Below are positions 2,691 to 21,692 of a DNA stretch of 32,000 nt, piece by piece. Position 1 is the first letter of the stretch. Every line of letters begins with the position of its first letter. Made by a program: the position numbers and the translations under genes. The stretch is from Rhodococcus sp. WMMA185 (lineage in GTDB: Bacteria; Actinomycetota; Actinomycetes; Mycobacteriales; Mycobacteriaceae): contig NZ_CP017014.1 in the NCBI RefSeq assembly GCF_001767395.1, forward strand, positions 3,581,012-3,613,011. The letters are read 5' to 3'. The notes below the pieces were generated by a model. The model was given only the letters and a program-made list of their open reading frames with translations, was not told the origin of the DNA and did no database searches.

Positions 2691-3014
2691 TCAGACAGCG
2701 GACTGATGCTGCCGCTGCGCTTCGAAGAAGTCAGACCACGACTCGACCTCAGGGTGCTGCTTGAGTAGTGCTCGGCGCTGACGTTCCGTCATGCCGCCCC
2801 ATACGCCGAATTCGACACGATTGTCGAGAGCATCGGCCCCACACTGCATCAAAACCGGGCAATGCCGGCAGATCGTCGCAGCCTTCCGCTGCGCTGCGCC
2901 ACGGACGAAGAGCTGATCGGGATCGACTTCCCGACAACGAGCCTGCGTGACCCAGGCGATTCGAGCTTCTGCTTGCTCGACATCCAAACGGCTAGTTGGG
3001 GTGGTCATGTGCAT
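2691..3014 (-). CDS. whiB4: WhiB-family Fe-S redox transcription factor, WhiB4-like
   Basis: The C-terminal 107 aa of ORF 2691..3461 give MHMTTPTSRLDVEQAEARIAWVTQARCREVDPDQLFVRGAAQRKAATICRHCPVLMQCGADALDNRVEFGVWGGMTERQRRALLKQHPEV. This contains four Cys (C..CxxCxxxxxC) and the GVWGG turn. It is nearly collinear with Mtb WhiB4 and sits next to ponA2 as in Mtb. Start ATG 3014, or 3008. Confidence 0.9.
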   Translation of the reverse strand: MHMTTPTSRLDVEQAEARIAWVTQARCREVDPDQLFVRGAAQRKAATICRHCPVLMQCGADALDNRVEFGVWGGMTERQRRALLKQHPEVESWSDFFEAQRQHQSAV

Positions 3015-3255
3015 TCGGTTCCCCTCTTGTGTCTGCACAGCCCCCCCGCCTATCACGCTGAGACTGCACCAGATAAGTGATGGGCTGTTATCTCCATCAC
3101 ACCGTTCCCATAATTTAGGTAAAGAATCTGCAATGCGCAAGATGGAATCCACGACTTTTTGGTACGTACGTCCATCCCCACTGCTCAGGGCAGTTTCGTA
3201 GCCGACAATCTGCACCCGACCGGGGCACCCGAAGACCCCACGTACCCTGTAGGGC

Positions 3256-5631
3256 GTGTCGATTGCAAAAACAGTGGGGAAGCTCGCGGGATCATCTGCC
3301 CTCGCGGGCGTGCTCCTCGCCGGCGTGATGTTTCCGCTCGCCGGAGGATTCGGATATGCCTCCAACAGGGCGGCGGACACGGTGGATAACGTCTCCGCCG
3401 AACTGGTCGACGGAACGGTTCCCGCCGTCTCGACGATGGTTGACGCCGAGGGCAACCCCATTGCCTGGCTCTACGATCAGCGACGGTTCGAAGTCCCCAG
3501 CGACCAGATCTCCAACGAGATGAAGCTCGCTATCGTCTCGGTCGAAGACCGCCGGTTCCCCGAGCACAAGGGCGTGGACTGGCAGGGAACGATACGGGCG
3601 TTTCTGACCAACACCACGAGCGGCGAGGTCCAGCAGGGCGCATCGACGATCGACCAACAGTATGTAAAGAACTACCAACTGCTCGTCGTGGCCAAGACCG
3701 ATGCCGAACGTCGCGCCGCGATCGAAACGACCCCGGCCCGCAAGATCCGCGAGATCCGGATGGCGCTGACCCTGGACAAGGAACTCACCAAGGACGAGAT
3801 CCTTACCCGGTACCTGAACCTGGTGCCGTTCGGCAACGGCTCGTTCGGCATCCAGGACGCCGCGCAGACCTACTTCGGCATCGACGCGTCCCAACTCAAC
3901 ACTCAGCAGTCCGCGATGCTCGCGGGCATGGTTCAGTCGAGCTCGGCACTGAACCCCTATACGAACCCCGACGGTGTCCTCGCGCGGCGCAACGTCGTGC
4001 TCGACACGATGAGCTCGAGCATTCCCGACCGTGCCGCAGAATTCCAAGGGCTCAAGGAAACCCCGCTCGGGGTGCTGCCCGAACCCAACCGACTGCCCCG
4101 CGGGTGTATCGCGGCCGGAGATGCCGGCTTCTTCTGCGACTACGCCCTGGACTACCTGGCCTCCGCCGGCATCAGCCGCGAGCAGGTCGACAAGGGCGGC
4201 TATCTGATCAAGACGACGCTCGACCCCGAGGTCCAGTCATCGACCAAGGCGGCCCTCGACTCCAAGGCGAGCCCCACGCTCGACGGGATCGCCAATGTCA
4301 TGAACGTGATCCAGCCCGGACAGGACTCGCACCGGATCCTCGCAATGGGCAGCAGCCGCACGTACGGCCTCGACGCGGACGAGCACGAGACCGTCCAGCC
4401 GCAGCCGTACTCGTTGGCCGGCCACGGCGCCGGATCGATCTTCAAAATCTTCACAACGGCGGCCGCCATGGAAAAGGGCCTCGGCACCAGCGCCGTCTTG
4501 GACGTACCCGCTCGATTCGAGGCAAGGGGCATGGGTAGCGGTGGCGCGAGGGGCTGCCCTCCGAACACGTACTGCGTCGAGAACGCGGGCAATTACCCCT
4601 CGGCGCTCTCGGTGACGGACGCGCTCGCGCAGTCGCCCAATACCGCATTCGTCGAGCTGATCCAGGCCACCGGTGTCACACCGACGGTGGATATGGCCGT
4701 ACGTCTGGGCCTGCGCTCCTACGCCGAACCCAACACCTCGGGCTTCGACGACAGAAGCATGGCCGACTTCCAGAAGGAACAGAATCTTGGCTCGTTCACG
4801 CTCGGGCCTACCTGGATCAATCCGCTCGAGTTGTCGAACGTCGCTGCGACGCTCGCGTCACACGGCATGTGGTGCCCACCCACACCGATCGACTCGGTGT
4901 TCGACCGCAACGGTAATCCCGTCAGTCTCAAGGAGCAGGCGTGCGAGCAGGTCGTCGAACCCGGCCTGGCCGACACACTGGCCAATGCCATGAGCAAGGA
5001 CGACGCGCCCGGTGGCACATCCGCCTCAGCCGCGAGGTCCGCCGGCTGGACGCTCCCGATGTCGGGCAAGACCGGCACTACCGAGTCCAACATGTCATCG
5101 GGCTTCCTCGGGTTTACCAACAACTTCGCCGCAGCCGCCTACGTGTTCGGCGACTCACCCACACCGGGCCGGATCTGCTCGTTTCCGCTGCGGCCCTGCA
5201 GCGGCGGAAATCTCTACGGCGGGAACGAGCCCGCCCAGACATGGTTCGCAGCGCTGAACCCGGTCGCCGACAAGTTCGGGCCGACGACGCTGCCGCCGCT
5301 CGACCAGAAGTACGTGCGGGGCTCGCAGAACGGCCAGGTGCCGAGCGTCGCCGGCCTGAGTCAGTCGGCCGCGATCTCGGTCCTGCAGGGTGCAGGTTTC
5401 TCGGTGAACTCGGTCACCACCGACTCTTCGGCGGCGGCGGGAACGGTCACCGGGTCGTCCCCGTCCGGTTCAGCGGTCCCGGGCTCGACCATCACGATCT
5501 ACGTCAGCAGCGGGACAGCGCCGCCCGAGCCGGAGGAGCAGCCGGACGAGGGAACCCCCGTTCCACCTCTCCAGTTGCCATTCCAGATACCCGGCCTCCC
5601 GCCGATCCAGCTGCCACTACCGCCCGGGTGA
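3256..5631 (+). CDS. ponA2: Class A penicillin-binding protein (transglycosylase/transpeptidase) with C-terminal PASTA domain and Pro-rich tail
   Basis: N-terminal TM helix. GT51 motifs are present (SVEDRRF, GASTIDQQYVKN, RKIREIRMAL). The transpeptidase module shows SIFK, SPN and KTGT. A PASTA-like segment (VPSVAGLSQSAAISVLQGAGFSV...GSTITIYVSSG) is followed by a Pro-rich tail. The protein is collinear with Mtb PonA2. GTG 3256 is the first start after an in-frame stop. Confidence 0.92.
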   Translation: MSIAKTVGKLAGSSALAGVLLAGVMFPLAGGFGYASNRAADTVDNVSAELVDGTVPAVSTMVDAEGNPIAWLYDQRRFEVPSDQISNEMKLAIVSVEDRRFPEHKGVDWQGTIRAFLTNTTSGEVQQGASTIDQQYVKNYQLLVVAKTDAERRAAIETTPARKIREIRMALTLDKELTKDEILTRYLNLVPFGNGSFGIQDAAQTYFGIDASQLNTQQSAMLAGMVQSSSALNPYTNPDGVLARRNVVLDTMSSSIPDRAAEFQGLKETPLGVLPEPNRLPRGCIAAGDAGFFCDYALDYLASAGISREQVDKGGYLIKTTLDPEVQSSTKAALDSKASPTLDGIANVMNVIQPGQDSHRILAMGSSRTYGLDADEHETVQPQPYSLAGHGAGSIFKIFTTAAAMEKGLGTSAVLDVPARFEARGMGSGGARGCPPNTYCVENAGNYPSALSVTDALAQSPNTAFVELIQATGVTPTVDMAVRLGLRSYAEPNTSGFDDRSMADFQKEQNLGSFTLGPTWINPLELSNVAATLASHGMWCPPTPIDSVFDRNGNPVSLKEQACEQVVEPGLADTLANAMSKDDAPGGTSASAARSAGWTLPMSGKTGTTESNMSSGFLGFTNNFAAAAYVFGDSPTPGRICSFPLRPCSGGNLYGGNEPAQTWFAALNPVADKFGPTTLPPLDQKYVRGSQNGQVPSVAGLSQSAAISVLQGAGFSVNSVTTDSSAAAGTVTGSSPSGSAVPGSTITIYVSSGTAPPEPEEQPDEGTPVPPLQLPFQIPGLPPIQLPLPPG

Positions 5632-7269: not shown

Positions 7270-7346
<77 letters not shown>

Positions 7347-9635: not shown

Positions 9636-10079
9636 TCAGACCCGTAGTCCAGTGAAGGGCTCGAAGGGGATGTTCCTCACCACGAACCAGGCCACGGTCA
9701 CTGTCAGGGCGACGGCCGGTGCCCAAGGTAGGTGCTGCCAGCCGCGAATCTTGCGCCCGCGCAGCCGTCCCCGAGTCCACGTGAGATACGCGGCGCCGAG
9801 AAGAACGAGCGCTGCCACGCCGACAGCGTTGTAACGCAGCGCATTCGCGATGTCGAGGTGAAGGAGCGAGTAGAGCATGCGGGTGCTGCCGCAGCCTGGG
9901 CAGTTGATCCCCAGAAGCGCTTTGGTCGGGCACACGGGAATGACACCACCAGGCGTCGTCGGGTCGGCCCAAGCGACGAACCCGCACACCGTGAAAATGG
10001 TGGCGGCAACGGCCACGGGCGCGCCGAGACGACGCACTCCCTGCCGGGCCGTTGCCGGGTCCACCTGGGAGTCTTGCAT
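9636..10079 (-). CDS. DUF2752 family membrane protein
   Basis: From the internal ATG 10079: MQDSQVDPATARQ...CPTKALLGINCPGCGSTRMLYSLL. This carries the DUF2752 CP..(x)..CPGCG.TR signature plus 3-4 TM helices. The ATG shares one base with the TGA of the upstream CD225 gene (TGATG). Confidence 0.8.
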   Translation of the reverse strand: MQDSQVDPATARQGVRRLGAPVAVAATIFTVCGFVAWADPTTPGGVIPVCPTKALLGINCPGCGSTRMLYSLLHLDIANALRYNAVGVAALVLLGAAYLTWTRGRLRGRKIRGWQHLPWAPAVALTVTVAWFVVRNIPFEPFTGLRV

Positions 10080-10435
10080 CACATGCCGGCGGTCGCGGAG
10101 AACGCGCTCATCATAAGGATGACGTAGAGCACCGCAAACACGAGACCGGCGGGTATACACCACAGAGCGAACTTCTTGGCGTCCTCGGCGGCCTTGCGGG
10201 CGGCATCGAACTGGCCTTGCGACCACAGCGAGTTCACCCGCGTTGCCTTGACGATCGAGACGATGCCGAGTGGCAGACAGCAGAGGACCGTCGCCAGGAT
10301 CGCCCAGACCAGGTTGTTGTCCGGCGGGGTCATGTACCCCTGCGGGGGCGGAGCCGGGTAACCGTAGTTCGGATGCGGGGGGACGCCCTGCTGTCCGTAG
10401 TTCGGGTCCTGGCTAGGGTACGGATTCTCGGTCAC
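10079..10435 (-). CDS. CD225/dispanin (interferon-induced transmembrane protein-like) family protein with Pro/Tyr-rich N-terminus
   Basis: NNLVWAILATVLCCLPLGIVSIVKATRVNSLWSQGQFDAARKAAEDAKKF is the CD225 core (W.I..T..CC.P.GI..IV.A..V). GTG 10435 is taken as start (MTENPYPSQDPNYGQQG...) because the 29 codons upstream have low GC3. Confidence 0.8.
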   Translation of the reverse strand: MTENPYPSQDPNYGQQGVPPHPNYGYPAPPPQGYMTPPDNNLVWAILATVLCCLPLGIVSIVKATRVNSLWSQGQFDAARKAAEDAKKFALWCIPAGLVFAVLYVILMMSAFSATAGM

Positions 10436-10573
10436 TCGTTGGCCTCGCTTGGTTTGAACGCTGGGATGTGGTCGAAACGAACAGACTGGGCAGTCTAACT
10501 TTGCTTGCACAACTGCTCCCACTCCCTCTAGGAGTGCGGCGAAGGCGGACGCTCAGCAGGACGCTTCCTCGGT

Positions 10574-13500
10574 TCACAGACCCCGATCGATCAGGTCGAG
10601 GATTTCCTCGCTGGTTGCCGAGTGAATCTTGTCTACCGCGTCGGCATGTGCATCGCCCGCGCCGACTTCCGCCAGCAAGAGTCTCAGCCGCTGCGCGATC
10701 GCCGACCGCGCCTCGCCGTCTTCGCCGAGTTGCGCGATGGCCGCGCGCAGCCGATCGAGGTCGGCAAGAGCCACCGAAGCCGGGTCCGGGGCGAGCTCCG
10801 CACGTAGGAACTCCGCGATGGCACGCGAATTCGGATGATCGAACACCACGGTCGGCGGCAACCGTAGCCCGGTAGCGGCACCGAGATAGTTGCGCAGAGC
10901 AACGGCGGCGAGCGAGTCGAAGCCGAGTTCCTTGAACGCCTGATCCGGGTCGACCTTGTCTGCGGCGGCATAACCGAGGACTTCGGCGGCGCCGGTCCGC
11001 ACCAGATCGAGCATCAGGTGCCGCTGCTCTGGAATCGACCGATTGGCAAGGCGCTGCTCCCAATCCGACGGTCCGGACCCCACCGATCCGGGTTCTGCTG
11101 CGCCCGATCCCGACGACCGCGGGCGCGATTCCCGGATCAGGCCACGCAGCGGAGCAGGGACGTAGGGTGCCGCCGTACCGGAGTGGTCGAACCGGGCGGC
11201 CGCCACGGCTGCGACACCTGCTGTCAACGCGGTATCGAGGAGTGTCAGACCGTCGACTGCTGACAGTGGGACCATTCCACTGCGGCGCGCGCGAGCGAGA
11301 TCGATCGCACCGAGGTTGTCGGTCATAGCGCTCGGCGGCGCCCACATCCCCCACGCAATCGAGAGCGCCGGCAGGCCAAGGGCGTGGCGGTGACGGGCGA
11401 GGGCGTCAAGGAACATGTTCGCGGCCGCGTAGTTCGCCTGGCCGGGCGCTCCGAGGACCCCAGCCAGCGACGAGAACATGACGAACGCCTGCAAGTCACA
11501 CTTCTCCGTCAACCGGTGCAGGTGCCAGGCGGCATCGACCTTCGGTCGGAGCACTGCGTCGAGACGGTCGGTGGTGAGCGAAGGCAGGGTGGCGTCATCT
11601 ATCACCCCTGCCGTGTGGATCACCGCCGTCAGTGGGTGCTCGGAAGGTATCTCGGCCAGCAATCCGGAAACTGCCGTCTCGTCGGACGTATCGCAGGCAA
11701 CGATGCTCACCTCGGCGCCCGTGGCGACCAGTTCGCGGCGCAACTCGTCGCAGCCCTCGGCATCGGGTCCGCGCCGGCTGGTCAGCAACAAATGCCGTGC
11801 CCCGTGCTCGGTGACCAAATGACGAGCCACCAACGAACCCAAAGCGCCGGTGCCACCGGTGACCAGAACGGTCCCGCGGGGATCGAATGGCGAAACGGCG
11901 GAATCGTGCACGGGACGCAATCGCCGCAACCGCGGCGCAAGCAAGGTGCCATTCCGCATTGCCGATTGCGGTTCCCCACTTGCCAGAGCCGACGTGATTG
12001 CGGCCGACGCGGTCGCAACTTCCGCGTCCGCCCCTTCGTCGAGGTCGATCAGCACGAATCGATCCGGGTTCTCGTTTTGCGCTGAGCCGACGAGACCCCA
12101 CACTGCAGCAGCGGCGAGGTCGGTTCGATCATCGCGCCGCGAATCGTCATCGGTGGCAATCGCATTCCGGGTCACGATCACCAGGGGGCTGTTTGCGACA
12201 TCGTCTTCCAGCCACTTCTGCAGCAGGTTCAGCACCCGGGCGCACAGTTGGTGGGTCGCCTCGGGACCTTGCTCGCCCTCGGTGCCGCACCCGACCAACA
12301 CAGCCCTAGGCCGCCGGTCATCCTCGTCCGCCATGGATTCCATCGCGGTTCGCAGAGCTTCCACGTCCGGATACCTCGGGAGGTCCGTACCAAATCCCTT
12401 GTCACCAAATCCCTTGTCACCAAATCCCTTGTCACCAAATACGTTGTCGGCGAACCCATCGGCACCGAGCACAACCATCGGACCGATGGTCTGCTCAGAT
12501 GAATCGACCTCGACGCGAACCCACGACAGCCGGTGCAATCGACGAGCGGCGGAACCGCCGGCGCCTTCCCCGTCAGTCACCCTCTGCACGACCCGCAGCG
12601 CGTCGACCGTCAGCACCGGCCTACCCTCCGGGTCGATGGCGGCCAGCCGATAGCGTCCGTCCTCGCCCGCTTCGAACTGCACCGATACCGCCTCTGCGCC
12701 AACGGTGTGCAGACGGACTCCCGCCCAGTCCATCGGCCAGCCATCCCAACCGAGGATCGGCTCGAGTACGTCCTGCAGTAGCGCCGGATGGATGCCGAAC
12801 CCGCTTGTGTCGATGCCTTCTTCGAGGCCCACCTCGATCTCGGTACCTTCTTCGAGGCCTACTTCGGCACCCTCATCAACTTTCGGTACCTCCTTGGCAA
12901 CGCTGACGACGTCGTCGATCGTCGCCGAAGCGTTTCGGACCCAAGCGTCCTCGCTGTCGTCCTCGCCCGGATTCGACGAAATCGTGACGGTGCGATCGCC
13001 GCTACCACCGTCCGGGGACACCAACACGCGAATCGATGCCGACCCCGACGACGACAGGGTCACTGGATGATGAAGAGTGAGTTCCCGGATATGGTCGAAA
13101 CCGACGTGGTGGGCCGCGTGCAATGTGAGTTCGACCAGTACGGACGGCGACACGATCTGCGGGCCATCGGCCGAGGACGAGTCGGCATCATCACGCGGCC
13201 CGGCCGCGGTGTCATCACGCGGCCCAGCCGCGGTGTCATCACGCGGCCCAGCCGCGGTGTCATCGACCGGCGCTGCCACGAGCCACGAATCTCGCCGAAG
13301 CGACAACTGACCGGTGAACAACGTCGAGTCGTCGTCGAGCGTCATGGTCGCCCCGAGCAGCGGATGATTCGCTGCGCTCAACCCCAGCTCCGTCGGATCA
13401 CCGGCATTTCGCATGGGCTCCGACGGCCAGAAGGAACGACGCTGGAATGCGTAGGTGGGCAAGTTCACCCGGCGGCGGCCAGGCAACACCCGATCCCAGT

Positions 13501-16500
13501 CGACCGCTACTCCGCGCACATAGGCGGCAGCAACCGCCTCCATGATCGCGTGTGCCTCGGTTCGACGTTTCGGCAGTGTCGCGATCGTATCCGGGACGAG
13601 TTCGGCAGCGTATGCGGCGAGGGTTGCGCCGGGACCGACTTCGATGAAGCGGGTGACGCCGAGCTCTTCGAGGGCGTGCACGCCGTCATGGAAGCGCACG
13701 GGCTGCCGGATGTGCCTCGTCCAGTATTCCGGAGACGTGAGTTCGTCGGCGGTGGCCAAACGTCCGGTCTCATTGGAAACGACAGGAATCTTCGGCTGCT
13801 GCGCCGACAACCCCGACACAACGGCGGTGAACTCGTCGAGGATGGGTTCCATCAGGGCGGAATGAAAGGCCCGCTCGACCCGCAGGGTCGTGTTCTTGAT
13901 GTCCGCTGCCTTCAACTCGGTTGCGACAGCTTGCACCTCGTCCTCTCCGCCGGAGAGGACCACCGATTCGGTGCCGTTGACCGCTGCCAGATCGACCCGG
14001 CCGTCGATCTGCGCCATGATGTCTTCTGCTCGCGCCCGTACGGCGATCATCAGGCCAGGTTCGGTCGATTGCATCAATCGTCCACGGTTGCCCACCAGCG
14101 CGGCGGCATCGGGCAGGCTGAACACCCCCGCGACATGTGCAGCGGTGATCTCCCCGATCGAATGACCGATCAGGTAGTCGGGGGTAATGCCCCAATCCCG
14201 CAGCAGCCGATAGAGCGCGACCTCGACGGCGAACAGTGCCGGTTGGGTGTAGTCGGTGCTGTCGAGCTTCGCGTCTCCGCCGTCAGCCTCGTCCCAGATC
14301 ACTTTTTGCACCGGGGTTTTCACATGTTCGTCGAGGGCAGCACACACGTCGTCCATCGCGTCGGCGAACACCGGGTAAGAATCGTAGAGGCCGCGGCCCA
14401 TCCCGACCCGCTGTGCTCCTTGGCCGGTGAACATGAATGCCGTCTTCCCACGGGCACTAGTCCCGGTGATGACGTTGCCACCCGGTCGGCCTTCCGCGAT
14501 ACGGGCCAAACCCTCACGGAGTTCGGCCAAGGTTTGTCCGATCACCGCCGCGCGATGCGGGAAGCTGGATCGGGTGGTGGCCAGTGAGTATGCGAGATCG
14601 GCCAGATCCGGTAGGTCTTCCTCATCCTTGTCGAGGAATTCCTCCAAACGAGAGGCTTGCGCACGCAGCGCATCAGCCGACTTCCCGGAGATCACCCAGA
14701 CCAGCGGCGACTCCGGTGGCTGCGGAGCTTGCGGTTCCGGCTCGGCGGGCGGCGCCTCGAGGATCATGTGTGCGTTGGTGCCGCTGATACCGAACGACGA
14801 CACCGCCGCTCGTCGAGGCCGTCCGGTCTCGGGCCACGCGATCGGTTCGGCAAGCAGAGAGACCTCGCCCGCTGTCCAATCAACGTGTCGTGTCGGAGCA
14901 TCGCCGTGCAGGCTCGGCGGCAGCACCCCGTGCCGCATCGCCATCACCATCTTGATCACGCCGGCCACTCCCGCCGCCGCCTGGGAATGCCCGATGTTCG
15001 ACTTGACCGAACCGAGCCATAGCGGCCGACCGGCCCGATCTTGTCCGTAGGTGGCCAATAGTGCCTGCGCCTCGATCGGATCCCCCAGTGTCGTGCCTGT
15101 GCCATGCGCTTCCACTGCGTCGATATCGGTTGGGCCGAGCGAGGCGTTGGCCAGCGCCTGGCGGATCACCCGTTCCTGGGACGGCCCGTTCGGGGCAGTC
15201 AATCCGTTGGAGGCCCCGTCCTGGTTGACCGCCGAACCGCGAATGGTCGCCAGCACCCGATGGCCGTTGCGTCGTGCGTCGCTGAGCCGTTCGAGCACCA
15301 CCATTCCGGAGCCTTCACTCAATCCGGTGCCGTCCGCCCGGTCGGAGAACGGCTTGCACCGTCCATCCGGGGCGAGCCCGCGCTGGCGGCTGAACTCGAC
15401 CAGCACACCGGGCGTGGACATCACCGTCGCTCCCCCGGCCAGCGCGAGGGGACATTCACCGTCGCGCAGGGCCTGTGCCGCAAGGTGCATAGCCACCAGT
15501 GACGACGAGCAGGCCGTGTCGACGGTAACTGCGGGGCCGGTGAAGCCGAGAGAGTAGGAGATCCGGCCGGATGCCACGCTGTCGCTGGTCCCGGTCATCA
15601 GATAGCCCTCGGCATCGACATTTCGCTGCGCCATCAAATGGAAGCCGTAGTCGCCACCCATCAGCCCGATGTACACCCCGGTGCCGGTCAGATCGGGCGA
15701 GTCGGGCTGGATACCCGCCTGCTCCAAGGCTTCCCAGGCACTCTCGAGAAGAAGTCGGTGCTGCGGGTCCATCGCGATCGCTTCACGAGGGCCGACCCCG
15801 AAGAACGCGGCATCGAATTCATCGGCGTCGTAGAGGAATCCCCCCTCTTTCATATACGTGGTGCCACTGCGGTCGGGGTCGGGGTCGTAGACCTCGTCGA
15901 GATCCCAGCCTCGGTTGTCGGGATACGCACCCGCGGCGTTGTGGCCATCGCGTACGAGTCGCCACAGGTCGTCTGCGGAGTACACCTTGCCCGGGTACCT
16001 GCAGGCCATGCCGACGATCACGATCGGGTCGTCGTCCTCGCTGGTACGTGCTGCGCGTGTCGGTTGCGCAGTTGAACTGCTGCCGAGTAGGCGGGCGAGG
16101 AGTTCGCGCGTGAGAGCGTCCGCGGTGGGATGGTCGAAGACCACCGTTGCCGCCAGGCTCACGCCGGTGGCGTTGGCGAGGTTGTTGCGCAGTTGAACGG
16201 CGGTCAGGGAGTCGAAGCCGAGTTGCTTGAAGGCGCGTTCCGGGTCGATCACCTCTTTGCCGTCGTAGCCGAGCACCGCGGCCACGTGCGTGGTGACGAT
16301 GTCGAGTACTCGGCTGTGGCGCTCCCCGGGATCGAGTGCACGCAACTCGTCGGCAAGACCGGTAGGCGACTCGGTGGCTGCGGCGCGCCGTCGACGGATA
16401 CCGAGAACCCGCCGCAGGATCGGCGGCACCGATTCACCCTCGGTTCTCGAGGCGCGCATCGACAGTCGTATCGGGACGACCAACGGTCGGTTCAAGACCA

Positions 16501-19500
16501 ACGCGGCATCGAACAGGTCGGGCCCCGACTCCGGGCTGATGGTATCGATACCGTTGCGCTGCAAGCGGTCGAGATCGGTCGCGCTCAGATGGGACGTCAT
16601 CCCACTCGGACGGTCCCACAAGCCCCACGCCATCGAGATCGCGGGCAATCCGCGGACGCGGCGGTGCTGAGCAAGTGCGTCGAGAAAGACATTCGCGGCG
16701 GCATAGTTTGCCTGACCGGCGCCGCCGAGCACACCAGCCGCAGAGGAGAACAGCACGAAGGCCGACAACTCGCGATCACGGGTTAGTTCGTGCAGATGCC
16801 AGGAGCCGTCCACCTTAGGGCGAAGAACCGCGTGCAACTGCTCCTCACTCAACGTGGCGGCAGTACCATCTTCGAGCACCCCGGCGGCATGGACCACTCC
16901 GGACAGGTCGGGAATGTCTGCAAGCAGGGCAGCGATCGCCGCGCGGTCGGCCACGTCGCAGGCGGCGGCGCTGACCTCCGCCCCAGTGCCGGCGAACTCG
17001 GCCTGAAGTTCGGCCACACTCTCGGCGTCGAGCGCCCGCCGGCCGGTCAACACCACTCGGCGCACCCCGTACCGGTCCACGAGGTGACGCGCGATCAGCC
17101 TCCCGATGGTTCCCGTACCTCCGGTGATCAAGATCGTTCCGGTCGGACCGAAGGGGGGCGGGCTTTCTTCGGATTCAGCCTTGAACGCAGCCGTAGCGAG
17201 TACGGGCGCAAGCAGCGAACCGTCCCGGATCGCCACCTGAGGTTCCTTGCAAGCCAATGCCATTGACAGCAACGCCGGATCTGGCGTTTCTCCGGCCGGC
17301 ACATCGAGGTCCACCAGCGTGATGCGATCAGGATTCTCGTTCTGCACCGCGCTGATCAGGCCCCACGCAGGTGCGGCGGCCACGTCGTCGATCGGTTCGT
17401 CGTCGCGGACCGGGACAGCGAGCCTGGTGGTGACCAACAGGTGGGTCTCGTCCAGGCCGTCTTCGCGGAGCCAGTACTGAATCGCGCGCAAAGCCTCCTG
17501 CGCGGCAGCGTGTGCTCGACTCGGCATGGGCGACTCGTCGCCTGGATGAAGATCCAACCACAGCACGCGATCGGTGTGATCGCCTCCGGCGAGTGCGTCC
17601 TGGAGTGGCATCAAGTCCGCAGCGGCAGTGGTGGCCGCTGTGGTGGGTATCCACTCCACACGGTAGAGGCTGCTGCCTACCCCAGCCGTGGAGACACTCG
17701 TATCCCCGAGAGGCCGCAGCGCCAGCGAGTCCGCTGTCAACACCCGTTTCCCGACCGCGTCGTATGCGGATACCCGGTATCGCTCCGCCCCGGTCATGGT
17801 GATGTGCACACGCAGCGATCTTGCACCCTCAGCGTGCAGTTGTACGTTGTCCCACACAAACGGCAGCCGAACGTCGCGTGCACCAGTTTCCGCGGCCCCG
17901 AACGCAATCACGTGCAACGCCGCGTCCAGCACTGCCGGATGGATCCCGTATCCCGCGACTTCGGGGTCGTCTCCGCCTAGCCGGACCTCGCCATACAGCT
18001 CGTCGCCGCGACGCCACGCTGCCCGCAGCCCTCGGAAGGTCGGGCCGTATCCGTAGCCGACCTCGTCGAGCAGCCCGTAGAGACCGCTGACGTCGATCGG
18101 AGTGGCATCGGCCGGCGGCCACTGCTGCTCGGTAGTGTCATCGACGTCCACCGACGCCGAAAGCGTGCCGCTGGCGTGCCGCGTCCACGGAGCTTCCGGC
18201 GGGGCATCTGCAGACCTCGAGTGCACCGCCACCGTGGCTCGGCCGGCTTCACCGTCGGCGAGCACGCTGACCTGTAGGGCAACTTCACCCTCGACCGGAA
18301 TCGTCAAGGGCACTTCGATGGCGAGTTCCTCGATCCGAGCGCACCCGATGCGGTTCCCCGCGTGCAAGGCGAGCTCGACGAAAGCGGTGCCGGGCAGTAT
18401 CACGGTTCCGTTCACGGCGTGATCGCTGAGCCACGGAAAACGTTCCGGTGAAAGCAGGCCCGTGAACACCGCACCACGGCCGTCACCGAGTTCTACGGAT
18501 GCGGCGAGCATCGGGTGTCCGCCCGCTTCCATGCCGGCCGACGCGAAATCACCCTGCGGCGCAGGACTGTCCAACCAGAAACGGCGGTGCGTGAAGCCGT
18601 ATGTAGGCAGTTCAACCCACGGGTGCCGACCGTCGCGCCGAGCCCAGCCCACGCGGTCCCACTCGATGTCCAATCCGTGTACCCACGCCTCGGCGAGTGC
18701 CGCGGTGAACTGACGCAGCCCTGCACGGTCGCGGCGGATAGTGCCGATTATTCGGCCGGCGACACCCGTAGCGTCAAGGGTTTCTTGCATCGGCACGGTC
18801 AGCACAGGGTGGCTGCACGATTCGATGAACAACCTATACCCGTCCGCGACAAGCGACCTCGTCGCTTCTTCGAACCGAACTGGGTGGCGCAGATTCCTGT
18901 ACCAGTAGCCCGCGTCCAGGGCGGTTCCCTCGAGCTCACCACCCGTGACAGCCGAGTAGAACGGAATCCGCGACCGGCTCGGGGTGATCGAGGCGAGAGC
19001 GTCGAGAATCGGTTGGCGCAGGACCGAGACATCCGCGCAGTGCGAGGCGTATTCCACAGCGATCCGCCTGGCCTGCACGCCCTCGGCCTCCAACTGCCCC
19101 ACCAAGGCATCGAGGGCATCGTCTGCACCGGACACCACCGTCGCGGACGGCCCGTTGATCGCCGCTACCTCGATGGCACCGGACCAGGGTTGAATCCTCT
19201 GCCGTACAGCGTCCGGGGGCAGCGGCACTGAGGCCATACCTCCGCCTCGCCGGGCCGACGTCACAATCACCCTGCTTCGTGCCGCGACGACAAGAGCTGC
19301 GTCGGAAAGGCTCAGAGCGCCGCTGATGTAGGCGGCGGCAATCTCGCCTTGCGAGTGCCCGACCACAGCAGCCGGTTCGACGCCGTGGGAGCGCCACAGC
19401 TCGGCGAGACCGACCATCACTGCGAACAGCGCGGGTTGCACCACATCGGCCCGGTCCAGCGCGGCCGGATCCGGATCACGCAGGACATCGAGTAATGAGA

Positions 19501-21334
19501 ACGACGTGTACGGTGCCAGCGCGTCGGCGCACTCCTGCACGGCATCGGCGAAAGCTGGCGACGAGTCCAGCAATTCCGTGGCCATACCTACCCACTGCGA
19601 ACCCTGACCCGGGAAAACGAAGACCGGCCTGTCCCCGGCCTCCAACGCCGCACCGGTGACCAAGTCGGCGCTGGGCGCACCTCGACTCAGGGCGTCGAGA
19701 CCGGCCAAGAGGCTCTGCGGCTCTGTGCCGATCACCGCCGCGCGATGGTCGAACCTGGTACGTGAGGTCAGCAATGCGCTCGCCACCGCGGCGGGCGGCA
19801 CCTCGGGGTGGTCGGCGGCATACTCACGTAGCCGCTGTGCCTGGGTGCGCAGAGCGTGTTCGGTCTGGCCCGAAACGCACCAGGCCAAGACTTCGGCCGC
19901 GTGGGGGCTCGCCTCCTGAGATGACGGATCATGCTCCTTCGGGGCCGGCAGGAACTGTTCCAGTACGACATGGGCGTTGGTGCCGCTGATGCCGAACGAC
20001 GAGACTGCCGCCCGGCGGGGTCGATCGACCTCCGGCCAATCCCGGTTCTCGGTGAGGAGAGACACCGATCCAGCAGACCAGTCGACGTGCGGGGTCGGCT
20101 GGTCGACGTGCAGCGTCTTCGGTAGGACGCCACGGCGCATCGCCATGATCATTTTGATCACCCCGGCAACACCGGCGGCCGCCTGGGTATGCCCGAGGTT
20201 CGACTTCACCGAGCCCAGCCACAGCGGCCGGTCCGTGGGGCGGTCGCGGCCGTATCCGGCCAACAACGCGGTCGCCTCGATCGGATCGCCCAGCTTGGTC
20301 CCTGTACCGTGCGCCTCGACGGCATCGACGTCGGCCGGATCCAGCCCGGCATTGGCCAGCGCCTGCCGTATCACACGCTCCTGTGCCTGCCTGTTCGGAG
20401 CGGTCAGGCCGTTGCTTGCACCATCCTGGTTCACCGCACTGCCGCGGATTACGGCCAGTACCCGGTGCCCCTTTCGCTCTGCGTCAGAGAGTCGCTCCAA
20501 CGCGATCATCCCAGCACCTTCACCCCAAGCGGTGCCGTCGGCAGACGCGGCGAATGCCTTGCACCTCCCGTCTGGGGCAAGTCCGCGCTGGCGACTGAAC
20601 TCCACGAACACCGCGGGGGTCGCCATAACGGTCGCCCCACCGGCCAGCGCTAGTTCGCACTCACCGGCGCGCAGCGCTTGCATGGCGAGATGGATGGAGA
20701 CCAACGACGACGAGCACGCGGTGTCCACGGTGATCGCCGGACCGGACAGGCCGAAGCTATAGGCCACTCGCCCGGAGGCGACACTCATCGCGTTGCCGGT
20801 GATGAAGTAACCCTCTAGGTCTTCCGGCGGGCGTCCGCCGACACGCGCCGCGTAGTCGATACCGGACAGCCCGGTGAAGACCCCGACCTGGTGGCCGTGC
20901 AACGACCGCGGATCTATCCCGGCATGCTCGAAGGTCTCCCAGCTCGTTTCGAGAAGAAGGCGCTGTTGGGGGTCCATGGCCAGCGCCTCACGCGGGGAGA
21001 TCCCGAAGACCTCGGGATCGAACGCCGCCGGTTCGTCGAGAAAGCTGCCCTGCACCGTGTAGGTTTTGCCCGACTGCTCTGCCTTCGGGTCGTAAAGTTC
21101 GGCCAGACCCCAGCCGCGGTCCTCGGGGAACTTCGTTACGGTTTCCGAACCCGATTCCACCAGACTCCACAGTTCCTGCGGTGATCGCACCCCACCTGGG
21201 AATCTGCAGCCCATCCCGATCACGGCGATCGGTTCGCGGCTCACCCCCTCGGCCTCGCGGAGCTTCTCCCGAGCTTGGTAGAGGTCCGCTGTCACCCGTT
21301 TCAGGTAGTCGAGGAGCTTCGCCTGATCGGCCAT
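10574..21334 (-). CDS. Bimodular type I polyketide synthase: Ndock-KS-AT(mmal)-DH-KR-ACP-KS-AT(mal-like)-DH(degenerate)-KR-ACP-Cdock; no ER, TE or loading module
   Basis: Residue numbers follow the 3627-aa ORF-track translation; nt ranges are approximate. N-dock aa 42-72 ([29 protein letters not shown]). KS1 19958-21235 (DTACSSS C248, [13 protein letters not shown]). AT1 18743-19630 (GHSQGE, YASH 803-806). DH1 17708-18625 (HPML, H1013[18 protein letters not shown]1178AALH). KR1 16598-17146 (GGTGTIG, LED, SSAAG...Y1585AAAN). ACP1 16088-16345 (GFDS1750L). KS2 14756-16033 (C1983). AT2 13583-14449 (GHSIGE, RAFH 2529-2532). DH2* 12578-13474. KR2 11333-11878 (GGTGALG, IDD, Y3343). ACP2 10802-11050 (GFDS3515L). 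C-terminal ~70 aa end in [15 protein letters not shown] 21334 is preferred over 21457, where the 41 upstream codons have lower GC3. Confidence 0.95.
12391..12450 (-). repeat. In-frame 15-nt tandem repeat (3 perfect copies plus 1 degenerate) encoding (GDKGF)3 inside the PKS
   Basis: caaatcccttgtcac occurs at 12391, 12406 and 12421, followed by the degenerate caaatacgttgtcgg. The protein reads [23 protein letters not shown] (aa 3003-3025). It lies in the linker before the structural KR2 subdomain. Confidence 0.95.
12816..12875 (-). repeat. Imperfect 30-nt tandem duplication inside the degenerate DH2 region (encodes EVGLEEG twice)
   Basis: ccttcttcgaggcccacctcg at 12816 and ccttcttcgaggcctacttcg at 12846. 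The protein reads [21 protein letters not shown] (aa 2863-2883). Confidence 0.8.
13187..13261 (-). repeat. In-frame 24-nt tandem repeat (3 copies) encoding (DTAAGPRD)3, inserted at the DH2 active-site motif position
   Basis: Three units of (a/g)tcatcacgcggccc(g/a)gccgcggt start at 13187, 13211 and 13235. The protein reads [32 protein letters not shown] (aa 2731-2760). Confidence 0.95.
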
Positions 21335-21692
21335 TCGAGACCAGCTCCCATCCAAGATCCGCCTTGCCAGCGTAGAAACTTCGATTGTATCCGTGACCAC
21401 GGCCCGGACGCATTGATCCGCAGCGGTGACGGGGGCGCCTAGATCACGATTGGCCACAGTTTCGTGCCCGATTCAGGGCCCGTCGAGAAGCTCGCCACAA
21501 CGCCGTGAAAGCAGGTCAGAACACTTTCCGCCGTTTGCCTCCTCGGAACGAAAGGTGCGGCATACGAAGGTAGTTCGCAATTCGAGCGCGGCACTACCGG
21601 ATACCACGCCGTAGAATTTCGGTGAGGAGGCTATCGCCCTCCCCGGTGCACAATCCCGCAGGCGCGCCCATATCAAGCGGCGGAGAACGACG

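What the first reader, a model, noticed from the sequence alone, without database searches (positions are those of the whole stretch)
10574..21334. PKS subunit with head and tail docking domains but no partner, loader or release domain nearby: Pks12-like self-docking (modularly iterative) candidate
Seen: both KS domains keep the active-site Cys (DTACSSS), so neither is a KSQ loader. The N-terminus [29 protein letters not shown] has the coiled-coil N-docking pattern of cis-AT assembly-line subunits. About 70 aa follow ACP2 and end in [12 protein letters not shown], a C-docking pattern. No TE/R/C domain, loading module or second PKS lies within 10 kb on either side. AT1 has a methylmalonyl signature and AT2 a malonyl-like one. 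Established: M. tuberculosis Pks12 is also bimodular with alternating methylmalonyl/malonyl modules. It has been reported to work by intermolecular iterative chain transfer through its terminal linker regions. Inference: this enzyme could dock head-to-tail with itself. Unlike Pks12 it has no ER and a dead DH2. The product would therefore be a repeating 2-methyl-enoyl / 3-hydroxy chain rather than a saturated mycoketide-type lipid.
Basis: partly seen in the sequence, partly recalled or inferred. Interest (0 to 1): 0.8.

Follow-up and report, generated by a model that had tools for sequence, protein, structure and literature searches.

The report
Stand-alone two-module Rhodococcus polyketide synthase
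This is an intact two-module polyketide synthase gene from Rhodococcus sp. WMMA185 that is kept across much of the genus as a lone gene whose head and tail docking helices evolve as slowly as its catalytic sites, which fits (but does not prove) copies of the enzyme docking head-to-tail like M. tuberculosis Pks12.

Summary
A 3586-aa PKS on the minus strand (10574-21334) has the order Ndock-KS-AT(methylmalonyl)-DH-KR-ACP-KS-AT(malonyl-like)-dead DH-KR-ACP-Cdock. It has no ER, TE or loader, and no second PKS lies in the 32 kb window.

The window is Rhodococcus sp. WMMA185. Its genome paper reports only two type I PKS clusters; the other is presumably pks13.

Orthologues (60-82% identity) occur in about 30 Rhodococcus/Rhodococcoides species. 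Among the 28 full-length loci analysed there are about 11 different gene neighbourhoods, often beside tRNA genes. No neighbour is shared by more than 7 of the 28. A conserved promoter-like motif and 5'UTR accompany the gene in every neighbourhood.

Both docking helices are under purifying selection as strong as KS and ACP (dN/dS 0.10 and 0.08). DH2 is dead in every orthologue.

Two unrelated lineages changed head residues 21-22 and the penultimate tail residue in parallel.

Self-docking, Pks12-like iteration is therefore the best-supported mechanism (confidence about 0.4), but it was not tested directly. The Pks12 analogy was already published for the R. opacus orthologue (Holder 2011), with a 12-domain count that Pfam does not support.

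I call it a new variant of a known kind, interest 0.6.

The parts
21245..21334 (-). N-terminal docking domain (coiled coil), aa 1-30: [30 protein letters not shown]
   Evidence: Pfam PF08990, E=6e-8. It matches the N-docks of Lsd14, CalA3 and DEBS in the PDB. Mean identity to the window sequence across the 28-sequence alignment is 92% and dN/dS is 0.10.
19955..21235 (-). KS1, aa 34-460, catalytic Cys-His-His intact
   Evidence: DTACSSS, EAHGTGT and KSNLGHT are invariant in all 28 orthologues.
18671..19624 (-). AT1, aa 571-888, methylmalonyl signature (RADVVQ, GHSQGE, YASH)
17696..18517 (-). DH1, aa 940-1213, active motifs present (HxxxGxxxxP, YGP, LDAALH)
16595..17695 (-). KR1 with its structural subdomain, aa 1214-1580. 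L(E/D)D motif (B-type), Ser/Tyr/Asn and TGGTGxxG present. There is no ER between DH and KR.
16100..16309 (-). ACP1, aa 1676-1745, LGFDSL
14747..16024 (-). KS2, aa 1771-2196, catalytic Cys-His-His intact; 67% identical to KS1
13475..14434 (-). AT2, aa about 2301-2620, malonyl-like signature (TDYTQ, GHSIGE, RAFH)
12485..13384 (-). DH2 remnant, aa about 2651-2950. The catalytic His and Asp are missing in all orthologues. It is the least constrained region and carries a window-specific 24-nt x3.2 in-frame repeat at 13188-13264.
   Evidence: (dN/dS 0.47).
11339..12484 (-). KR2 with its structural subdomain, aa 2951-3332. (I/L/V)DD motif (B-type) and an intact catalytic set. A 15-nt x4 repeat (GFGDK) lies in the linker at 12389-12448.
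10820..11029 (-). ACP2, aa 3436-3505, LGFDSL
10577..10819 (-). C-terminal docking domain, aa 3506-3586, aligning over its full length to the solved Lsd14 C-terminal docking domain. The terminal helix is [13 protein letters not shown].
   Evidence: Profile against the PDB: Lsd14 C-dock E=1.6e-7, EryAI E=0.005. The last helix has dN/dS 0.08; the helix 1-2 part has 0.30.
21381..21392 (-). Conserved GGATACAATCGA motif (resembles a -10 promoter element), 47-58 nt upstream of the ATG, followed by a conserved 5'UTR with a GGAG-type ribosome-binding site
   Evidence: The upstream alignment of 28 orthologues in different neighbourhoods is conserved only here. The motif has a single match in the window. 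No Rfam family matches. The sigma-70 consensus scan finds nothing.
7270..7346 (+). tRNA-Pro(CGG), which marks the edge of the variable segment that holds the PKS
   Evidence: The same tRNA lies 66 nt beyond the last PKS codon in L029, and about 1.3 kb beyond it in L002.

Best explanation
The gene encodes a self-sufficient, monocistronic, bimodular reducing type I PKS that is conserved through much of Rhodococcus. Per pass, module 1 adds methylmalonate and reduces and dehydrates it to a 2-methyl-2-enoyl unit. Module 2 then adds malonate and stops at the 3-hydroxy stage, because DH2 is dead and there is no ER.

The enzyme carries a DEBS/Lsd-type N-terminal coiled coil and a C-terminal docking domain. 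No cognate subunit is evident. The most likely reading is that homodimers dock tail-to-head with one another, so ACP2 of one dimer hands the chain to KS1 of the next. This is the 'modularly iterative' scheme proposed for Pks12.

That would build a chain of repeating C5H8O units, -CH2-CH=C(CH3)-CH(OH)-, on an acyl-CoA primer. Release would be by an unlinked enzyme.

Shown here: domain anatomy, motif states, conservation, selection on the docks, lone-gene status, and the head-tail parallel change. Inferred: self-docking, iteration, primer, product and release.
For: 1. Anatomy and motifs.
2. Both termini are genuine DEBS/Lsd-type docking domains.
3. The docking helices have dN/dS of 0.10 (head) and 0.08 (tail helix 3). 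This equals KS (0.10-0.11) and ACP (0.07-0.08) at normal dS of about 0.55-0.6, whereas interdomain linkers have 0.33-0.36 and DH2 has 0.47.
4. No flanking gene family is shared by more than 7 of 28 loci. There are about 11 neighbourhood groups, and only the gene plus its own promoter-like motif and 5'UTR are constant.
5. The source genome (Rhodococcus sp. WMMA185) is reported to have only two type I PKS clusters (PMC5159585). A pks13 cluster is present in all rhodococci studied (PMC5550956). Holder 2011 reports one such gene each in PD630, B4 and RHA1.
6. L009 and L022 are not sister lineages. Both changed head A21R22 to VK and tail G3585 to E or D. Only 4 of the 1511 columns that are invariant in the other 26 sequences changed in both lineages (0.5 expected), and 2 of those 4 lie in the roughly 50 docking-helix residues. 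By residue count, these sites lie next to the Pks12 contact E20-R4147 that was validated by mutagenesis (PMC2443190).
7. In four natural cognate junctions in fetched loci, tails of the ...LID(R/N/Q/H)xLG type pair with heads carrying (D/E)YL(K/R)xVT. This protein has both.
Against: - No interaction or oligomer was modelled or measured.
- Same-subtype head and tail also occur on an ordinary mid-line subunit (L030), so subtype match is necessary but not sufficient (PMC1994986).
- A general test for coincident head and tail changes along the tree was not significant: 7 shared branches against a null mean of 7.1. The covariation therefore rests on one post-hoc pair of sites.
- The 'two PKS clusters' figure comes from a genome announcement. 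I could not rescan the genome, and hybrid NRPS-PKS subunits are not excluded.
- To my knowledge no Rhodococcus lipid with the predicted repeat is known.
- The KS domains are closest to canonical assembly-line PKSs (73% to Sphaerisporangium). This shows ordinary assembly-line ancestry rather than a specialised iterative lineage.
Confidence: 0.4

Rival explanations
1. The enzyme works as a single-pass bimodular elongase. It extends an acyl-CoA or FAAL-delivered fatty acyl primer by exactly two units to a 3-hydroxy-4-methyl-4-enoyl acid, which is handed to an unlinked acyltransferase or hydrolase. On this view the docking domains are kept mainly for homodimer stability: the N-terminal coiled coil at the KS dimer and the helix 1-2 bundle after ACP2.
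For: The domain logic gives a complete two-step product. Both docking elements contribute to dimerisation in DEBS-type systems (established knowledge; PMC2443190). There is no chain-length-control or release domain that would suggest long products.
Against: The part of the tail dedicated to docking (helix 3) is far more constrained than the dimerising helices 1-2: dN/dS 0.08 against 0.30. Its only described role in DEBS-type docking domains is to bind an N-terminal coiled coil. The parallel head-tail change is also unexplained by dimerisation alone.
Confidence: 0.28
2. The enzyme is a detached mid-line subunit of a split assembly line. Its true upstream and downstream partners (another PKS, a hybrid NRPS-PKS, or a discrete loading or release protein with a docking helix) are encoded elsewhere in the genome.
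For: Both termini resemble those of an ordinary internal subunit: the best PDB matches for both ends are the two ends of Lsd14. The KS domains are up to 73% identical to canonical modular PKSs. WMMA185 has eight NRPS clusters.
Against: Only two type I PKS clusters are reported in this 4.44 Mb genome, and one is expected to be pks13. Holder 2011 found a single gene of this kind in three large genomes. The gene has moved among about 11 neighbourhoods, apparently without any accompanying partner gene. That is hard to reconcile with obligate partners unless they are themselves universally conserved.
Confidence: 0.2
3. The gene is a decaying relic of a horizontally acquired cluster with no current function. 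Its docking domains are leftovers.
For: The gene often lies next to tRNA genes, which are typical island sites. DH2 is dead, and the window copy carries repeat expansions.
Against: The 10.7 kb reading frame is intact in 28 species. Every catalytic motif is invariant. dN/dS is 0.07-0.25 in the catalytic domains and below 0.5 even in DH2.
Confidence: 0.03

Closest known systems
Mycobacterium tuberculosis Pks12 (Rv2048c), mycoketide synthase, the 'modularly iterative' bimodular PKS (Chopra et al. 2008, PMC2443190)
   Same: Both are single polypeptides with two modules. Module 1 is methylmalonyl-specific and module 2 malonyl-specific. Both have an N-terminal coiled coil and an approximately 81-aa helical C-terminal tail. 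No thioesterase is mentioned for Pks12 in the paper (0 occurrences). Holder 2011 reports 41% identity and places the Rhodococcus gene on the same tree branch.
   Different: Pks12 has DH-ER-KR in both modules (12 domains, 4151 aa) and makes a saturated chain. This enzyme has no ER and a dead DH2 (10 domains, one of them inactive; 3586 aa), so it would make an unsaturated, hydroxylated chain. Self-docking is shown experimentally for Pks12 only.
Orthologues OPAG_06239 (R. opacus PD630) and ABG96022.1/Q0S8W4 (R. jostii RHA1), annotated 'type I polyketide synthase'
   Same: They belong to the same family. The C-terminal third is 60-82% identical, the architecture and termini are identical, and the proteins are 3527 aa.
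   Different: They sit in different neighbourhoods and lack the two in-frame repeat expansions of the window copy. No product or experiment was found in the searchable literature.
Internal subunits of canonical cis-AT assembly lines with DEBS-type docking domains (DEBS2, lasalocid Lsd14)
   Same: Head and tail docking domains are homologous. KS identity to canonical modular PKSs reaches 73%.
   Different: Those subunits sit in multi-gene clusters with cognate neighbours, loaders and a terminal TE. This one is a lone gene in a genome reported to have no other modular PKS.
Mycobacterial iterative MAS-like synthases (Mas, Pks2)
   Same: They are lipid-building type I PKSs of the Mycobacteriales that extend fatty acyl primers with methylmalonate.
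   Different: They have C-terminal tails of 11-13 residues with no helical propensity. By established knowledge they are single-module and fully reducing. Holder's label 'MAS-family type 1b' does not fit the anatomy found here.

Membership tests
DEBS/Lsd-type PKS docking-domain pair | N-terminal coiled-coil docking helix directly before KS | tested here: met
   PF08990 at aa 2-29, E=6e-8 and above the curated cut-off. It aligns to the Lsd14, CalA3 and DEBS N-docks.
DEBS/Lsd-type PKS docking-domain pair | C-terminal tail of about 80 aa after the last ACP, homologous to solved C-terminal docking domains and ending in an amphipathic docking helix | tested here: met
   The 14-orthologue profile matches the Lsd14 C-dock over all 83 positions (E=1.6e-7) and EryAI (E=0.005). 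Pfam PF09277 itself did not score on the tail alone at E<=1.
DEBS/Lsd-type PKS docking-domain pair | Head and tail belong to the same compatibility subtype | tested here: inconclusive
   The tail is of the ...LIDRGL type and the head of the LLDYLKRVT type. In 4 of 4 natural junctions in fetched loci this tail type pairs with this head type, and 2 of 2 ...GKEFGI tails pair with other heads. The sample is small, and class match is necessary but not sufficient (PMC1994986).
Pks12-type modularly iterative bimodular PKS | Two complete modules on one polypeptide, methylmalonyl AT first and malonyl AT second | tested here: met
   The order matches that reported for Pks12.
Pks12-type modularly iterative bimodular PKS | Full reducing loop (DH-ER-KR) in both modules | tested here: not met
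   No ER domain is found in the window protein or in the R. opacus and R. ruber orthologues. DH2 lacks its catalytic His and Asp.
Pks12-type modularly iterative bimodular PKS | No loading module, no TE, and no cognate partner subunit | tested here: met
   This is met within the window and in the roughly 10 kb flanks of 27 orthologous loci. Genome-wide it rests on the literature only.
Pks12-type modularly iterative bimodular PKS | Head-to-tail association of dimers and intermolecular ACP2-to-KS1 transfer | not testable with these tools
Indirect support only: selection on both helices and one parallel head-tail change.
Pks12-type modularly iterative bimodular PKS | Phylogenetic orthology to Pks12 | not tested
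   No Pks12 termini could be retrieved. Holder 2011 places the Rhodococcus gene on the Pks12 branch at 41% identity, whereas KS1 is 73% identical to a Sphaerisporangium modular PKS.
Rhodococcus lone bimodular PKS orthologous group | About 3400-3590 aa, identical domain order, conserved [15 protein letters not shown] head and [12 protein letters not shown] tail | tested here: met
   28 full-length members were aligned. Exact-sequence look-up names the window protein AOW93667.1 of Rhodococcus sp. WMMA185.

The most novel reading that the evidence does not exclude
Rhodococcus carries a second natural example of a modularly iterative PKS. Its dimers would polymerise tail-to-head and make, on a fatty acyl primer, a polyprenoid-like chain of repeating -CH2-CH=C(CH3)-CH(OH)- units. 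This would be an unsaturated, hydroxylated counterpart of mycoketide, made by one mobile gene that needs no cluster.
Probability: 0.3. Interest if true: 0.8.

Novelty: new variant of a known kind. Interest (0 to 1): 0.6.

Why it matters
Among the papers searched here, the 'modularly iterative' mechanism rests on one enzyme (Pks12) and essentially one in vitro study. A second, genetically tractable example with a different reducing programme would test whether head-to-tail self-docking is a general way to turn an assembly-line fragment into an iterative synthase.

This family suits that test. It is a single gene with its own promoter-like motif. It is present in model strains (RHA1, R. opacus). 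The predicted product series is easy to recognise by mass (+84.058 Da steps). Specific residues to mutate are head 21-22 and tail 3585.

It would also assign a function to the only modular PKS of many rhodococci, and might reveal an unknown envelope or signalling lipid in a strain known to induce antibiotic production in co-culture partners.

Tried and rejected
- Full-length and 2400-aa homologue searches timed out.
- The 111-aa N-terminal search returned only short fragments and no named Rhodococcus or Pks12 entries, so it could not show whether other rhodococcal proteins carry such a head.
- Exact-product contig look-ups for the window protein found nothing.
- Pfam PF09277 did not score on the isolated tail. 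Homology was shown instead with an orthologue profile against the PDB.
- I first read the Lsd hits as a cognate pair. The same tail sequence sits at the C-terminus of the Lsd14 construct 7s6c, so both matches are the two ends of one subunit. I dropped that argument.
- A tree-wide test for coincident head and tail substitutions was not significant.
- L030 (Solirubrobacteraceae, 3806 aa, both docks) was considered as an independent lone analogue. I rejected it because another PKS gene with an N-dock follows it directly.
- No Rfam family and no sigma-70 consensus match was found in the conserved leader.
- Megablast against plasmids gave only partial Streptomyces-type PKS hits.
- The RHA1 genome paper (PMC1622865) is not held.


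Full report
**What is there**

The minus strand carries one long ORF, 10574..21457 from the first GTG. Its translation and Pfam scan give this order:
- N-terminal docking domain (PF08990, aa 2-29, E=6e-8)
- KS-AT-DH-KR-ACP
- KS-AT-DH(N-terminal half only)-KR-ACP
- a tail of about 81 residues

There is no ER, TE, reductase or condensation domain. The real start is the ATG at 21334. All 28 full-length orthologues start at the same MADQ/MADD/MADR/MTDQ, and the sequence upstream is conserved only as DNA.

**Motif states**

- Both KS domains keep Cys-His-His.
- AT1 has RADVVQ, GHSQGE and YASH, the methylmalonyl signature by established AT motifs.
- AT2 has TDYTQ, GHSIGE and RAFH, which is malonyl-like.
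- DH1 has HxxxGxxxxP, YGP and LDAALH.
- Both KR domains have the NADPH loop, Ser/Tyr/Asn and an LxD-type B motif.
- Both ACP domains have LGFDSL.
- All of these are conserved across the 28 orthologues; the KS Cys and His1 motifs, KS1 His2 and both ACP motifs are strictly invariant.
- DH2 has lost the catalytic His. The WLV...LPAVxVEL stretch replaces LxDHxVxGxxxxPG. Its Asp is also lost: LLQAALEP replaces LLDAALH. This holds in every orthologue.

**Surroundings**

The other genes in the window are:
- two ArsA-like ATPases, a WhiB regulator, a class A PBP, YqeY and a metallophosphoesterase
- tRNA-Pro(CGG)
- an alpha/beta hydrolase, a nucleoside hydrolase, and DUF2752 and CD225 membrane proteins
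- the PKS
- a divergent kinase-like gene, an adenosine-kinase-like gene, YdjM, ferritin, Fur, a flavin monooxygenase, a multicopper oxidase and an FGE-sulfatase protein

None is a PKS, loader, thioesterase, PPTase or acyl-AMP ligase.

**Whose gene it is**

Exact-sequence look-up identifies the protein as AOW93667.1/WP_070379864.1 of Rhodococcus sp. WMMA185, a sponge isolate. [quoted passage not shown] A pks13 mycolate-condensing cluster is present in all rhodococci examined (PMC5550956). The second cluster is therefore presumably this gene. That last step is an inference.

**Distribution**

A scan of one genome per species found orthologues of the C-terminal third at 60-82% identity in about 30 Rhodococcus and Rhodococcoides species. 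The next-best hits dropped to 36-48% in other actinobacteria. R. equi has only pks13 (PMC2947987), so the gene is widespread in the genus but not universal.

In all 27 loci with a full-length copy the protein is 3384-3573 aa with the same termini. The R. opacus and R. ruber proteins also lack an ER.

**Lone-gene status**

I clustered all ORFs within 6-7 kb on each side of the 28 genes.
- No family is shared by more than 7 loci.
- The loci fall into about 11 neighbourhood groups.
- The window group (WMMA185, R. marinonascens, two unnamed strains and both R. kyotonense) sits beside tRNA-Pro(CGG) and the ArsA-WhiB-PBP core.
- R. oryzae and R. maanshanensis have the gene about 180 nt downstream of tRNA-Val, and R. 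tibetensis about 190 nt downstream of tRNA-Met.
- The only sequence outside the coding region that accompanies the gene in every neighbourhood is a GCGGATACAATCGA motif 47-58 nt upstream of the ATG, plus a conserved leader with a GGAG-type site.

The unit that is inherited and moved is the single gene with its own control region.

**Are the docking domains functional?**

Mean identity to the window sequence across the 28-sequence alignment is 92% for the head, 90% for each KS, 57% for DH2 and 78% overall. Pooled pairwise Nei-Gojobori estimates are:

| Region | dN/dS |
|---|---|
| Head (N-dock) | 0.10 |
| KS1 / KS2 | 0.10 / 0.11 |
| ACP1 / ACP2 | 0.07 / 0.08 |
| Tail helix 3 | 0.08 |
| Tail helices 1-2 | 0.30 |
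| Interdomain linkers | 0.33-0.36 |
| DH2 | 0.47 |

dS is similar in all regions (0.49-0.66). The terminal helix is [13 protein letters not shown]; in DEBS-type systems this helix is the one that binds the next subunit's coiled coil. It is therefore as constrained as the catalytic cores and more constrained than the dimerising part of the same tail. This argues for a real binding partner and against a purely structural role.

**Homology of the ends**

The head aligns to the N-docks of Lsd14, CalA3 and DEBS modules. The tail profile aligns end-to-end with the Lsd14 C-terminal docking domain (E=1.6e-7) and with EryAI (E=0.005).

Six natural junctions in fetched loci give a small empirical rule. 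Tails ending ...(L/F)ID(R/N/Q/H)xLG are followed by heads with (D/E)YL(K/R)xVT in 4 of 4 cases. Tails ending ...GKEFGI(S/T) are followed by other heads in 2 of 2 cases. This protein has the first kind at both ends.

That meets a necessary condition only. The mid-line subunit in L030 also has both ends of this kind, and class matching is known to be insufficient (PMC1994986).

**Head-tail covariation**

R. daqingensis (L009) and R. zopfii (L022) are not sisters on the PKS tree. Both changed head A21R22 to V21K22, and both changed the penultimate tail residue G3585 to E or D.

Of the 1511 columns invariant in the other 26 sequences, only four changed in both lineages (0.5 expected by chance). 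These are positions 22, 140, 977 and 3585. Two of the four thus fall in the roughly 50 docking-helix residues. A rough post-hoc calculation puts the probability of one such column in each helix at a few in a thousand.

By residue count these sites adjoin the Pks12 pair E20-R4147, whose mutation lowered turnover five-fold (PMC2443190). A general test of coincident substitutions on tree branches was not significant. I treat this result as suggestive, not as proof.

**Relation to Pks12 and prior literature**

Chopra et al. 2008 defined the Pks12 features: it is bimodular, has an 81-residue helical C-terminal tail and an N-terminal coiled coil, forms supramolecular assemblies, and transfers the chain between molecules.

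Holder et al. 2011 had already described the R. opacus orthologue OPAG_06239. At 3527 aa it has the length of the L005 protein. They called it a single-copy Pks12 homologue (41% identity) and recalled Pks12's tail-to-head oligomerisation. [quoted passage not shown]

KS1 is 67% identical to KS2 but 73% identical to a KS of a Sphaerisporangium assembly line. The enzyme therefore looks like a captured fragment of a canonical modular PKS rather than a MAS-like synthase. I found no paper reporting a product or a mutant.

**Mechanism and ranking**

Per pass the chemistry is R-CO-S -> R-CH=C(CH3)-CO-S -> R-CH=C(CH3)-CH(OH)-CH2-CO-S.

If dimers dock tail-to-head, repetition adds C5H8O each round. The result would be a skeleton like a hydroxylated polyprenoid. 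Priming (probably acyl-CoA on KS1, as in the Pks12 assays), chain-length control and release are all unknown.

My ranking is:
- self-docking iteration, 0.40
- single-pass elongase whose docks serve dimerisation, 0.28
- partners encoded elsewhere, 0.20
- non-functional relic, 0.03

**Verdict**

The idea is not new for this family, but the comparative evidence gathered here makes it sharper and directly testable. I class it as a new variant of a known kind, with interest 0.6.

Noticed in passing
window 7270-7346 (tRNA-Pro CGG) through about 21500; L029 12625-12699; L017 2019-2091; L020 2042-2114; L028 1986-2061: In several unrelated neighbourhoods the PKS gene lies directly beside a tRNA gene: tRNA-Pro at its 3' side in the window group, and tRNA-Val or tRNA-Met at its 5' side in others. 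The cargo between tRNA-Pro and the PKS varies from none in R. kyotonense, to one hydrolase in R. marinonascens, to four genes here. This suggests island-like insertion or a recombination hot spot.
   Followed up: partly
window 21335-21420 (-), motif at 21381-21392: A GCGGATACAATCGA motif and a following leader (CTCGGAT.GGA..GCTGATCTCG) are conserved upstream of all 28 orthologues, although everything further upstream differs. No Rfam family and no sigma-70 consensus hit was found. It may be a promoter plus an operator or leader element specific to this gene.
   Followed up: partly
window 13188-13264 and 12389-12448 (-): There are two in-frame tandem repeats. The first, 24 nt x3.2, encodes DDTAAGPR x3 inside the DH2 loop that replaces the catalytic His; it is absent from all 27 orthologues. 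The second, 15 nt x4, encodes GFGDK x4 in the DH2-KR2 linker; orthologues were not checked for it. Both lie in the two least constrained regions of the protein.
   Followed up: partly
orthologue alignment positions 22, 140, 977, 3585 (L009 and L022): R. daqingensis and R. zopfii share parallel replacements at four otherwise invariant residues. Besides the two docking sites these are I140L in KS1 and T977A inside the DH1 HxxxGxxxxP motif region. This may be convergent adaptation or short gene-conversion tracts.
   Followed up: partly
L005 2291-12871 (R. opacus orthologue, same length as OPAG_06239): The published statement that the R. opacus protein has the same twelve domains as Pks12 (PMC3169528) conflicts with Pfam. 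Pfam finds no enoylreductase domain in either module.
   Followed up: yes
window 2691-3461 (-) versus 3256-5631 (+): The longest ORFs for the WhiB-like gene (domain at aa 170-232 of 256) and for the PBP overlap by about 200 nt on opposite strands. The mechanical starts are probably too far upstream for one or both genes.
   Followed up: no
window 10079-10522 (-) and 9636-10226 (-): A CD225/interferon-induced-transmembrane-family protein and a DUF2752 protein lie on the PKS strand starting 51 nt after its stop codon. No tblastn match to either appears in the 49 fetched loci, so they are not part of the conserved unit. The CD225 family is uncommon in bacteria.
   Followed up: no
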